Assembly: GCA_964016885.1 (NCBI GenBank)
Contig: OZ024741.1
Coordinates: 30,132,001 to 30,196,000 of the forward strand
DNA: 64,000 bases
Direction: 5' to 3'
Source of the DNA: Eledone cirrhosa
Lineage: Eukaryota
The number at the start of each line of letters is the position of its first letter. Within the stretch, counting starts at the first letter, position 1. The translations under genes were made by a program, and so were the position numbers. Shown here piece after piece: positions 13,575 through 62,207 of the stretch. The notes beneath the pieces are model-generated. The model was not told where the DNA came from and searched no databases. It saw nothing but the letters and a program-made list of their open reading frames with translations.

Positions 13575-13692
13575 TATCTCTGAAGAAGTGACAACTGATT
13601 ATACATTTGCTATCGAATACTTGCTAACATTATATGATTACGCAAGCAGCGATACATAGGTATTCGGTCTGTTACAGAAACATATGTCAATA
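13575..13692 (+). ncRNA. Hammerhead with 90-nt domain II
   Basis: CTGAAGA-a-GTGACA...TGTTAC-a-GAAA-CATATG-TC-aata: palindromic stem III, GUC site, weak stem I, then AATAAA. Confidence 0.75.
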
Positions 13693-13770
13693 CCTAATAA
13701 ATTCCTTTTTTAACAAAAGCACTTTCATTTTATATTCATCCCTTCTATATATATATATATATATATATAT

Positions 13771-14625
13771 AGTTATGCTTTGGGAGGGTCATGTTGCCAA
13801 TAAGAAACACACGCACCAGCGGCTTTCACTTCAATTTATTATGGATTAAATTTATAAATTTCCGGTTGGTTGGTTGGTTCCACAACCAGACGATTGTTCA
13901 TATATTGTCAAAGTTCTTTTGTCACACATTCTGTCACCTCTTCAGTGACTGGGGATTCTTTTCTTTGTTTTTGTGCCTCTCCTTTGTTCTGTCCTACGCC
14001 ATCTTGTTTTTGTGTGTGTTGTGTGCTTAAGTTGCGCATGTGTTACATCCGGGTGTCTGTGTGTGTTTATATTTGTTTATTTATTTGTTTATTTACATGT
14101 TACTGGTTGGTTATTTGTTCTATGTGTGTGTGTGTGTTTTCATTTTGTCCTTAATTGTAAGTTGTGATGTTGCTGTTCCATTCATGTTTTCTATTTATAG
14201 AAGGAATAACCAACCAGTAACATGTAAATAAATAAATAAATAAACAAATATAAACACAAACAGACACCAGGATGTAACACATGCGCAAACTGAGCACACA
14301 ACACACACAAAAACAAGATGGCGTAGGACAGAACAAAGGAGAGGCACAAAAACAAAGAAAAGAATCCCCAGTCACTGAAGAGGTGACAGCATGTGTGACG
14401 AAAGAACTTTGACAATGTATGAACAATCGTCTGGTTGTGGAACCAACCAACCAACGGGAAATGTATAAATTCCTAAATTTATAAATTTAATCTATAATAA
14501 ATTGAAGTGAAAGCAACTGGTGCGTGTGTTTCTTATTGGCAACATGACCCTCCCAAAGCATAATTATATCGGTTTCAACACACGTTTTCAGATAATGAAA
14601 CTTGCTAAACAAATTCAGAAACGAA
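13771..14625. mobile_element. Non-coding fold-back element family B1: arms about 13772-14115 / 14205-14563, tail to 14625, one HHR per arm
   Basis: About 345 bp inverted arms with terminus ttatgctttgggagggtcatg. Related copies at 16270-16370 and 44025-44382. Confidence 0.88.
14371..14413 (+). ncRNA. Hammerhead with extra nt after A9; antisense twin 13907-13949, further copy 44182-44224 (-)
   Basis: gtca-CTGAAGA-g-GTGACA-gcatg-TGTGAC-GAAA-gaac-TT-tgac: stem I 4 bp, stem II with one G.G mismatch. Confidence 0.75.
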
Positions 14626-14659
14626 ATATATATATACATATATTATTATATATATATAA

Positions 14660-14850
14660 GGGCGGTCGATTGGCAGTAACGGTAGAGGGTCGGACGCCAT
14701 GCTTTCCAGCATAGTTAAGTACCTTTACGATCTGAGTTCAAATCCCGCCGAGGTTGACTTTGCCTTTCATGCTTACTGGGTCGATAAAATAAAGTACCAG
14801 TAATGCACTGGGTAATTGCTGGCCTTGTGCCTAAAGTAGAAACAATTATT
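14660..14850 (+). mobile_element. SINE family A
   Basis: A-box-like tggcagtaacggtag, B-box gagttcaaatccc, conserved body and 3' end. Confidence 0.88.
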
Positions 14851-59975: not shown

Positions 59976-60307
59976 AGCTACAACAGCCAACATACATGCA
60001 CACACACACACACACACACACACACACACACACACACACACACAAACACACACACACATACACACACACACACACCCACACACACACACACACACACACA
60101 CACACACACACACACACACACACACACACACACGCATACATACACACACACAGACACACACACATATATATATATGTTGTATCACAATTACTCCAATGCG
60201 TGTTCTCCAAATGAAATTGTTAAGCAAATTCTAAACGATATGGAAATCACTGGATATGGATCTAAACATATACTGTATATATATATATATATATATATAT
60301 ATATATA

Positions 60308-60430
60308 ATTTCTGAAGACAGCATATATATGTGAAGGGATGTATATTTCCGCTGATAGTTTGTAATATTTTTACATGATCTATATGATATACGTACCAAC
60401 ACATATATATCCTAGAAACGATCGTAAAAT
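60308..60430 (+). ncRNA. Hammerhead with 96-nt domain II (solo pLTR between (TA)n runs)
   Basis: attt-CTGAAGA-cagcATATATATGTG...CACATATATATccta-GAAA-CGATCG-TA-aaat. Confidence 0.75.
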
Positions 60431-61333
60431 GATGCATTTTTTAATATAAGGAATTTGTTCTTTATTTTTATTGATTGTTTTTATTAATTTATATATATAT
60501 ATATATATAAATATAAGTATGTACACGTACATACATATATGTGTACAGGCGTACAGTAGTATATATATATATATACATATATGCACACATATATATATGT
60601 ACGTATGGATTCACCGAACATTTATTATAATGCTCGGTGTGTTTGTAAACACACATCCCGTATTAAGCCGTAGTGTCTAGCAACCATCGTTGCTCGTTTG
60701 TTCAACACTGACAAAGGAACGCTGTACTAGTTTCAAGCTTATTAGCTATCGTCAGCATCGTATACCTTCCTGCCAGATTGTTGAACGTATATACTTACCT
60801 TATGCATATTAATATATATGTATATATATACATACATATTTGGAAAAAGGAAAAGAATGACTTCACTTGTAATTCTAAACAATTTAATTTTATAATATAA
60901 TTTTGCAATTTGGTATTGTAGATCTTGTAAGTTCTTTGTTAACTTCGGTGGGGAGATTTTTTTAAAGATTGGTGGTTAACTTTCCTTGTCAACTGATCTT
61001 AGGTTGTGTTGGGATGTGGGTGTGACTGTTGTTAAAGAGTATGGGAGTGAAGGAGTGTTGATGAAATATATATACACAGTGAAATTAGTGAATGGTAATA
61101 GCAAGATCATTGATTGAGAGTGGAGTTGGGAGGTCATGGTGTGTGTGTTTAAGGAGTGTTTTAGAAAGGTCTTGTGCAAGTGGTCCCCTGCTGGTTCAAT
61201 TTCATGAAATGGAACCAGCAGGAGGGCACTTATATATATATATATATATATATATATATATATATATATATATATATATATATATATATATATATATATA
61301 TATATATAAATATATATGTATATATATATATAT

Positions 61334-62207
61334 AAATTAATAAACACAATGAAATAAAAACAAAGACCAGCTTCCTTATATTGAACAATTCATCATTTTA
61401 CGATTGTTTCTGGGATATATAATTTAAACAAATTTTTTTTTACTTTTTTATTTATCACATTCATAAGAATTAATATAATTTTAACTCTGTAAGTATACCT
61501 ATCAATTAATGTAATTTCCTTTTATGTATCTAGGTTCCTTATAATTGAAATAGGATTAGTATTTCTCACTAACACTCTCATCACACAAATTTCTTTCCCT
61601 TCGCTTTTAACTGCATTTTTTAATAACATCAAATTTTTGGGGTCTCCTTCACTATCTCCTTGATTTGACCTCACTTTAACCCCTATTTTTCTCTTCCCCA
61701 TTGCATTCTTTTCATTAAAAGGATAAATTTACACTCCTCTACTCCAATCATAACATTCTACTACTATTATTCTATCAACTTAACCTCTAACTCTTTTCTA
61801 TTGGTCAATTCAAAACCTGTTCCCAAACAGACTTTTTGTATTAATTCTTTGTTTCTTACAATAAACATACTTCATCATTTCTGAAGATGGCATATATAAG
61901 TGAAGGTATATATATCTCCTCTGATAATTTGTAATATTTTTTTACATAGATCTTTAACATTATATACATACCAACACACATATATATCCCAGAAACGATC
62001 GTAAAATGCTGAATTTTTCAATATAAGGAACCTGGTCTTTGTTTTTACTTCATTGTTTTTATTAATTTATCTTGACTTTGTTTTCCTAGGATTTTTATCG
62101 TTAATTATTGAATGCATGTTCTCTTTTCAGGATATCTTCTATATTTGGATTATAATGAGTTCTTCATACGGATTGGACACTACCGTTTATTTTTCTAGAT
62201 TCATCTA
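61334..62207 (+). mobile_element. Non-coding pLTR element with about 85 bp inverted 5' arm (61334-61420 / 61982-62068) and tail
   Basis: Arms are reverse complements; contains the HHR at 61876-62008; (TA)n flanks. Confidence 0.8.
61876..62008 (+). ncRNA. Hammerhead with 104-nt domain II
   Basis: CATTT-CTGAAGA-TGGcatatataagtg...cacatatatatcCCA-GAAA-CGATCG-TA-AAATG: 5-bp stem I, palindromic stem III. Confidence 0.85.

What the first reader, a model, noticed from the sequence alone, without database searches (positions are those of the whole stretch)
13575..62008. Hammerheads whose stem-loop II is expanded to a 90-104 nt domain in several distinct pLTR types
Seen: 13575-13692 and 10732-10848 (90 nt), 25041-25159 and 21916-22034 (94), 40614-40733 (93), 60308-60430 (96), 61876-62008 (104). 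Each keeps CYGANGA, GAAA, a palindromic 6-mer stem III, a GUH site and a closing stem II, with similar insert length but largely dissimilar insert sequence. Intermediate sizes occur at 15999 (36 nt) and 20936 (47 nt). Known: minimal PLE HHRs normally have a short stem II, so length-limited descriptor searches would probably miss these. Inference: the insert may be a functional module such as an RT-binding site, regulatory switch or promoter element inside the ribozyme.
Basis: partly seen in the sequence, partly recalled or inferred. Interest (0 to 1): 0.85.

Follow-up and report, generated by a model that had tools for sequence, protein, structure and literature searches.

The report
Long-armed hammerheads with repeated internal loop
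One lineage of Penelope-like jumping genes in this animal genome carries tens of thousands of hammerhead self-cutting RNA motifs whose second stem is a 75-117-base hairpin, and in several families that hairpin keeps a small repeated loop that is likely a protein docking site near the probable start of the transcript; cutting and binding are untested.

Summary
The seven motifs are four types (A-D) in five insertions; one copy has a broken palindrome. They are type I dimer-type hammerheads in the terminal repeats of Hydra-clade Penelope-like elements, with thousands of copies per type against near-zero controls.

Three corrections. Insert length is a continuum of 10-117 nt, not a 90-104 class. 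The long inserts belong to one endonuclease clade, so they are inherited, not separate expansions. They are long irregular hairpins, not free sequence.

New here: families A, B, E, F, G and H share an A·G mismatch + bulge + U-A loop at two sites about one helical turn apart. It is near-invariant while the neighbouring pairs covary. D has one such loop; C has none. The 5' ends of inserted arms pile up 7 nt (D) or about 16 nt (A) before the core, which suggests the hammerhead opens the transcript. Published Hydra hammerheads have 12-26 nt here.

Best reading: a cap-proximal docking hairpin through which a protein gates cleavage. No RNA data were available and the motif was found post hoc. Other notes of this scan reported long stem II motifs on other DNA.

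The parts
13575..13692 (+). Family A type I hammerhead in the short inverted arm; core 13580-13586, GAAA 13677, palindrome CATATG, predicted cut after 13688 (GUC)
13587..13676 (+). Family A 90-nt helix II hairpin; loop motif 1 at 13604-13608 with 13657-13660, motif 2 at 13615-13619 with 13647-13650
   Evidence: fold z -4.1; motifs
10732..10848 (-). Family A hammerhead in the sense (3') repeat; insert 10748-10837, predicted cut after 10736
10679..13745 (-). Family A insertion: 5'-truncated, broken RT-GIY-YIG ORF remains (about 11351-13609) between 170-nt inverted arms of 99% identity, in (TA)n; the sense arm runs on into the tail
40614..40733 (-). Family B hammerhead; 93-nt insert 40630-40722 with two loop motifs (40704-40700 with 40649-40646; 40692-40688 with 40662-40659); predicted cut after 40618
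   Evidence: (z -2.5)
25041..25159 (+). Family C hammerhead; 94-nt insert 25051-25144, no loop motif, folds no better than shuffles; predicted cut after 25156 (GUA)
   Evidence: (z -0.2)
21916..22034 (-). Family C hammerhead in the inverted arm; palindrome broken by one substitution
21901..25174 (+). Family C insertion: inverted arms of about 520 nt around broken RT-GIY-YIG ORF remains (22418-24661)
60308..60430 (+). Family D hammerhead, 96-nt insert 60319-60414; 5'-truncated about 5 nt before the core in (TA)n; loop motif damaged by a small deletion on the 3' arm
   Evidence: (z -3.9)
61876..62008 (+). Family D hammerhead, 104-nt insert 61888-61991, single loop motif 61925-61929 with 61947-61950; predicted cut after 62003
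   Evidence: (z -2.9)
15992..16066 (+). 36-nt-insert hammerhead (plain hairpin, no loop motif); paralogues with C3 at 15860-, 62803-, 62932+; family not linked to a Hydra ORF here
20930..21015 (-). 47-nt-insert hammerhead with imperfect palindrome and GUU site, no loop motif

Best explanation
These are type I hammerhead motifs in the terminal repeats of one lineage of Hydra-clade Penelope-like retrotransposons, whose helix II is an inherited 75-117-nt hairpin that likely sits just behind the transcript's cap and likely serves as a protein docking site, probably for the element's own RT-endonuclease protein, which would gate a slow, dimer-type self-cleavage.

Shown: the motifs, their copy numbers, the Hydra-type ORFs, the single clade, hairpin folding in A, B and D, covariation of stem I and of the family G hairpin, the repeated A·G/bulge/U-A loop, arm 5' ends just before the core, and element 3' ends downstream of the cut.

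Inferred: transcription starts 7-16 nt before the core; two hammerheads pair through the palindrome; the two loops, about one turn apart, face one side of the helix and bind a protein; cleavage would drop the cap and hairpin from part of the RNA, while uncut RNA is the template for insertion.
For: Hydra diagnostics (RWK/RWR, DKT, CxCx5C, CxxC, CxH in A and D; (TA)n targets) in open-frame copies of A, B, D.

Endonuclease tree of 35 element rows and 14 foreign proteins: long-insert families form one clade (99/96), apart from a 10-nt-insert relative; the double-motif families A, B, E, G, H form a clade (100/99), at 42-63% identity among A, E, G, H.

Family G, 16 sequences: 89% of cells paired, 7 of 17 pairs with two-sided changes, 27 such cells, 0/500 shuffles as high. 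The mismatch A4·G48 is present in 16/16, A15 in 16/16, G38 in 15/16. Two motif sites at insert positions 18-20 and 29-31 in A (15/18 copies), B (17/20), G (9/14), F (1/3). The descriptor ranks first of 60 mismatch/pair variants: 16 of 24 representatives, next 10, mean 2.5; double sites 4 versus 0; reverse-complement control 3. In D the motif block persists while the lower stem is rewritten. The closing pair differs by family (U-A, C-G, G-C). ORF-less family K keeps the loop (8/12 copies). Stem I covaries across 31 sequences (3 of 4 pairs, 30 cells, 0/500).

D head-to-head pairs: 981 with 0-30 nt between cores versus 83 with 31-61; 41 of 82 arms start exactly 7 nt before C3, none beyond 10. A: 33 pairs within 60 nt, with arms stopping near -16. 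The PAc hammerhead cleaves only with its protein present, and the protein is predicted dimeric (PMC11167929).
Against: No cleavage, binding or RNA data. The motif was spotted by eye on the same sequences later scored, and the families are related, so the counts are not independent probabilities. In one search the two measures that count pairs or pair types were not beyond shuffles (66/500, 219/500); the same holds for stem I (455/500, 179/500). A covariance model built from G alone missed A and B in the window and gave only E 0.009-10 on F, H, E, A, B inserts. MAFFT did not align A, B, E with F, G. The strict descriptor found only one of the two sites in A and E. Family C lacks the motif and its window copies fold no better than shuffles; families I and J lack it too; published Hydra elements transpose with 12-26-nt inserts. 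In PAc a template starting at +20 of stem II still works and hammerhead mutants insert normally. RT start sites lie downstream of the hammerhead. The extra G expected from a copied cap is unexplained by the other arm in only 7 of 41 D arms. The tree rests on 147 columns with a long-branch warning, and C is as close to a foreign Hydra protein (37%) as to A (34%). The 200-kb hold-out held no double-motif family.
Confidence: 0.45

Rival explanations
1. Free spacer. Minimal PLE hammerheads have no loop 1-loop 2 contact, so helix II grew once in this lineage and is selected only to stay paired and close the core; the shared loop is an inherited relic.
For: Continuous lengths. Families C, I, J are long without the motif. 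Short-stem Hydra elements exist. The cross-family covariance model is weak. Known precedent for large, poorly conserved inserts in retroelement ribozymes: R2 J1/2 loops of 216-498 nt (PMC3774820 passages).
Against: Unpaired A·G positions stay invariant while neighbouring pairs turn over. Spacing and distance from the core persist down to about 42% endonuclease identity. No family above about 117-126 nt was seen among the first 100 of 751 matches for 121-150 nt.
Confidence: 0.22
2. Host-facing 5' UTR control. The cap-proximal hairpin, with its upstream AUGs, is read by host factors (export of unspliced RNA, translation, splicing), and cleavage or splicing removes it to allow translation.
For: The hairpin would occupy the first ~130 nt of the RNA. 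Upstream AUGs lie in the inserts, and the ORF starts about 210 nt (A, B) or 350 nt (D) after the cut. D has a donor-like AG|GTATGT in the 5' arm. Type I hammerhead cleavage in viral 5' UTRs supports cap-independent translation (PMC13725137 abstract and Discussion).
Against: A and B have no comparably strong donor in stem II; their best candidate intron (77-80 nt) lies downstream of the hammerhead. An ORF-less family keeps the loop, which translation control does not explain.
Confidence: 0.2
3. DNA-level internal promoter. The insert holds downstream core-promoter or factor sites, and the hairpin is incidental.
For: Penelope has an internal promoter in its repeat (PMC2377424 passages). The insert would lie at about +15 to +130 of the inferred start. 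D's conserved block spells TGATA.
Against: Conservation is of pairs and cross-strand geometry, with different letters in each family. The reverse strand shows the motif in 3 of 24 representatives versus 16.
Confidence: 0.1

Closest known systems
Hammerheads of Hydra-clade PLEs (Craig et al. 2021, PMC8557442; passages, section 11, supplementary Files S1, S2 and parts of S7 read)
   Same: Host clade by protein motifs, (TA)n targets, sense type I hammerhead near the 3' end, short palindromic helix III
   Different: The 26 Hydra rows of File S2 have 12-26 nt between CUGANGA and GAAA (my count); the longest PLE entry is about 54 nt (PLE-X1_sMoe). Here 75-117 nt with repeated internal loops and a strict 6-nt palindrome
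Minimal metazoan PLE hammerheads (Cervera and de la Pena 2014, PMC4209133; parts 1-2 of 4 read, supplements not read)
   Same: Type I, palindromic helix III implying dimers, short helix I, unpaired base after A9
   Different: 'Larger than usual' helix II there is 6-8 bp. G10.1-C11.1 is often missing here (N opposite A in A, B, D)
PAc Poseidon element of Anolis (Frangieh et al. 2024, PMC11167929; parts 1-2 of 4 read)
   Same: Two RT start sites downstream of the hammerhead define a tail (A +59/+168, B +45/+160); no ends at the cut
   Different: The PAc ORF starts at stem II; here it starts 210-350 nt after the cut and stem II is non-coding
Ribozymes with large inserts: R2 HDV-like J1/2 loops (PMC3774820 passages) and discontinuous Clec2 hammerheads (PMC2950038 passages)
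   Same: A large insert inside a self-cleaving fold; in silkmoth R2 part of the insert is needed for cleavage
   Different: Different ribozyme or loop (J1/2; loops 1 or 3). Those inserts were not described as one covarying hairpin with a repeated loop
Cap-proximal RT- or factor-binding hairpins such as hepadnaviral epsilon and HIV TAR (recalled, no call)
   Same: Bulged hairpin near the 5' end of a terminally redundant retroelement RNA
   Different: Not parts of a ribozyme; no sequence similarity tested; analogy only

Membership tests
Type I hammerhead ribozyme | CUGANGA, GAAA and NUH in type I order | tested here: met
Type I hammerhead ribozyme | Helix I flanks the core and covaries | tested here: met
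   3 of 4 pairs with two-sided changes over 31 sequences; weak next to the core in A and C
Type I hammerhead ribozyme | Helix II closes the core | tested here: met
   folds in A, B, D (z -2.5 to -4.1); basal 10-bp stem in C although the whole insert has z about 0
Type I hammerhead ribozyme | G10.1-C11.1 pair | tested here: not met
   present in C only; A, B, D mostly have N opposite A; a variant, with unknown effect on rate
Type I hammerhead ribozyme | Self-cleavage after NUH | not testable with these tools
   no RNA run listed
Dimer-type PLE hammerhead | Palindromic minimal helix III | tested here: met
   6 of 7 window motifs; 98.9% of cells paired in 31 sequences
Dimer-type PLE hammerhead | Located in repeats flanking an RT-GIY-YIG ORF, sense strand | tested here: met
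Hydra-clade PLE | RWK and DKT motifs, CxCx5C linker, CxxC and CxH around the endonuclease E/N | tested here: met
   A has all; D has RWR; B's read copy lacks the final CxH
Hydra-clade PLE | Insertion into (TA)n | tested here: met
Hydra-clade PLE | RT phylogeny with named reference clades | not tested
   only an endonuclease tree with mostly unnamed homologues; one is an Apostichopus protein
Bulged-G / sarcin-ricin loop (consensus AGUA/GAA recalled) | AGUA opposite GAA with a sheared A·G | tested here: not met
   the loop reads A-N-U opposite A-G, with a variable bulge, followed by U·U, G·U, G-C or A·C; 3D likeness not testable

The most novel reading that the evidence does not exclude
A natural hammerhead whose helix II has been co-opted as a cap-proximal, two-site protein-binding module. 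A dimer of the element's RT-endonuclease docks on two A·G/bulge/U-A loops one turn apart and switches the RNA between translation, cleavage and use as template. Short ORF-less repeats copy the loop to borrow the enzyme. This would be the first defined RNA recognition element of a Penelope-like element and a protein-gated natural ribozyme switch.
Probability: 0.28. Interest if true: 0.82.

Novelty: new variant of a known kind. Interest (0 to 1): 0.57.

Why it matters
Why PLEs keep slow hammerheads, and how their telomerase-related RT picks its RNA, are open questions. This lineage offers a natural series (short stem, long stem without loop, one loop, two loops) and a seven-base motif to mutate, so both can be tested directly. 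The pile-up of arm ends just before the core gives a sequence-only estimate of the transcription start and explains the short inverted arms as run-off copies. In practice, 14 of 49 sampled motifs have inserts above 70 nt and escape Rfam and short descriptors, so hammerhead counts in such genomes are low.

Tried and rejected
RNA evidence: no RNA holder was listed; two contig runs of unknown kind gave no usable joints or ends. This is no evidence either way.

Relatives with DNA context: the metagenome scan found none (42 pattern matches, 0 confirmed). The protein search gave 61 homologues without context.

Neptune assignment, my first guess: dropped for Hydra.

ORF starting in stem II as in PAc: rejected.

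Insert as an intron that restores a short hammerhead: rejected, because the AG at the 3' end includes the G of GAAA. A general donor in stem II: only D has a strong one.

Switch by pairing of the insert with the strand 3' of the cut: an 8-bp match exists in A only; I did not see it in B, C or D by inspection.

Inserts above 120 nt as a family: 751 vs 179 control, heterogeneous, mostly nested cores in the first 100 rows.

One alignment or covariance model across all families: failed or weak. The first RNAalifold run on D gave no structure because of gaps.

Three tree rows (L314, L008, L322) pair a neighbour's hammerhead with an A or E ORF and were ignored in reading. End mapping and the arm count had alignment or index errors; and direct reading were used instead. 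Some clusters (for example D at 43, 48, 216) are subfamily alignment artefacts.

Literature: searches found no report of helix II this long in PLEs or of this loop. Lunse et al. 2017 and Arkhipova et al. 2017 are not held, and the supplements of Cervera 2014 were not read; any of them may show long variants.

Full report
Setting. The window is G000:C2:30132001-30196000 of a 3.0-Gb animal genome, AT-rich and full of microsatellites. It holds several broken RT-GIY-YIG elements, a Helitron and other repeats.

Observation. All seven long motifs and the two intermediate ones are present as described, with the corrections given under the observation check. They are far above chance in the window and in the genome: 2184 vs 8, 3366 vs 35, 5165 vs 6 and 6683 vs 9 matches against reversed patterns. 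Other length bins are also populated: 16723 vs 1066 for 55-84 nt and 8168 vs 1040 for 111-140 nt. An unbiased sample shows a continuum, with 14 of 49 motifs above 70 nt. Rfam finds none at gathering score.

Host elements. Open-frame copies of A, B and D (773-813 aa) carry the Hydra-clade signatures listed by Craig et al. (section read; motifs). In that paper's File S2 the 26 Hydra rows have 12-26 nt between the half-cores by my count, and the longest PLE entry has about 54. The ORF starts about 210 nt (A, B) or 350 nt (D) after the predicted cut, so stem II is non-coding, unlike PAc. An endonuclease tree groups all long-insert families with an ORF into one clade (99/96), apart from a 10-nt-insert relative and 14 foreign homologues; A, B, E, G and H form an inner clade (100/99) with D and C outside. 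The tree has 147 columns and a long-branch warning, and C's place is uncertain. Families I, J and K had no PLE ORF of their own within 1.5 kb upstream and may be non-autonomous.

The insert. It folds as a long irregular hairpin in A, B and D (z -2.5 to -4.1) but not beyond shuffles in the window's C copies. Comparing families by eye I found a recurring loop: a Watson-Crick pair, an A·G mismatch, one bulged base of any kind on the 5' arm, a U-A pair, then usually U·U or G·U. It occurs twice, at insert positions 18-20 and 29-31, in A, B, F and G; in E and H both sites can be read by eye, one of E's with G·G, but the descriptor scored one. It occurs once in D and in the 50-63-nt K families, and not in C, I or J. 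In 16 family G sequences the flanking pairs covary (7 of 17 pairs, 27 cells, 0/500 shuffles; but 66/500 and 219/500 for the pair-count measures), while the mismatch bases are invariant or nearly so. In D the loop block survives complete rewriting of the lower stem. Among 60 mismatch/pair variants this one ranks first, in 16 of 24 representatives. This test is post hoc and the families are related. A model built from G alone did not find A or B in the window and scored them only at E 6-10 in loci, although on the right coordinates. I therefore rate the shared loop as probable, not proven.

Where it sits in the RNA. Element 3' ends fall at fixed sites downstream of the cut (A +59 and +168, B +45 and +160, C +18) and not at the cut. 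This matches the two internal RT start sites and uncut template reported for PAc. The 5' ends of short arms cluster just before the core. D has 981 head-to-head pairs with 0-30 nt between cores against 83 with 31-61, and 41 of 82 arms in 40 fetched loci start exactly 7 nt before C3, at the A of an initiator-like TCATT (initiator consensus recalled), none beyond 10. An untemplated G precedes the arm in 7 of those 41. A shows the same near -16 in 33 pairs; B and C samples are too small (3 of 32 and 3 of 17 arms within 30 nt). The simplest reading is run-off at a capped transcription start, which would make the hammerhead and its long arm the first structure of the RNA. Stalling at stem I is an alternative.

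Mechanism. Shown: anatomy, lineage, covariation, end positions. From established work: palindromic helix III implies dimers and slow cleavage (PMC4209133; PMC6765202 passages); PAc cleavage needs its protein and is dispensable for insertion. Inferred: two identical non-canonical loops about 11 nt apart, at a fixed distance from the core and too far out to meet the short stem I, look like a repeated protein site. The element's own protein is the most economical partner, because an ORF-less family keeps the loop. I put this at 0.45, a free spacer at 0.22, host-facing 5' UTR control at 0.2 and a DNA promoter at 0.1.

Comparison. As a hammerhead and as a Hydra PLE it is a member of known kinds; cleavage is untested and G10.1-C11.1 is often absent. 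Large inserts are known in R2 ribozymes and Clec2 hammerheads. I found no report of a helix II of this size in PLEs or of this loop (searches; also term look-ups in PMC10085705 and the 2026 retrozyme preprint). Two key papers were not held and one supplement set was not read. Two notes of this scan on other genomes also describe long stem II motifs; I did not check them.

Verdict. Real, abundant and inherited: a new variant of a known kind, with a testable candidate module. Interest 0.57.

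Noticed in passing
window 3043-3087 (+): Short type I hammerhead with a 14-nt stem II and 7-nt helix III, like published Hydra motifs; Rfam Hammerhead_1 E 0.0047, below gathering score.
   Followed up: partly
window 16969-17060 (+): Decayed family G copy: hairpin module and 3' half-core remain, 5' core lost.
   Followed up: partly
window 28845 (+): Hammerhead with a 20-nt insert and imperfect palindrome, 1.3 kb after Hydra-like ORF remains at 25805-27508.
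   Followed up: no
L250:4226-4306; L252:4523-4600; L256 about 6860-6950: Candidate 77-80-nt intron just before the ORF start in A and B, with an AG|TYGAGC acceptor-like site also in D; a GAGCA-like word occurs on both sides and in published Hydra consensus ends.
   Followed up: partly
window 10726-10860 (-), family A: The 16-nt leader can pair with the strand 3' of the cut to give a two-part stem I with an internal loop; the insert also holds an 8-nt complement of the 3' strand. By inspection only.
   Followed up: partly
window 40612-40617 (-) and 13696-13701 (+): AATAAA lies directly (B) or 7 nt (A) after the cut, as another note of this scan remarked for other families; absent in C and D.
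   Followed up: no
L191, L076, L098 (family I); L160, L297 (family J): ORF-less repeats with 83-97-nt inserts; family I folds as a three-way junction inside stem II.
   Followed up: partly
G000, rows: Many D junctions show repeated short re-copies of the first 7-20 nt, as from repeated priming at the RNA 5' end.
   Followed up: no
window 45559-50409 (+): Helitron Rep-helicase remains (Helitron_like_N, PIF1).
   Followed up: no
window 9896-10093 and about ten other places: A dispersed repeat of about 190 nt, 77-95% identical, SINE-like.
   Followed up: no
window 17340-17879 (+); 29314-30393 (-): RT fragment of another retroelement type, and what looks like an apurinic-endonuclease fragment of a LINE (the latter by recall, no Pfam hit).
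   Followed up: no
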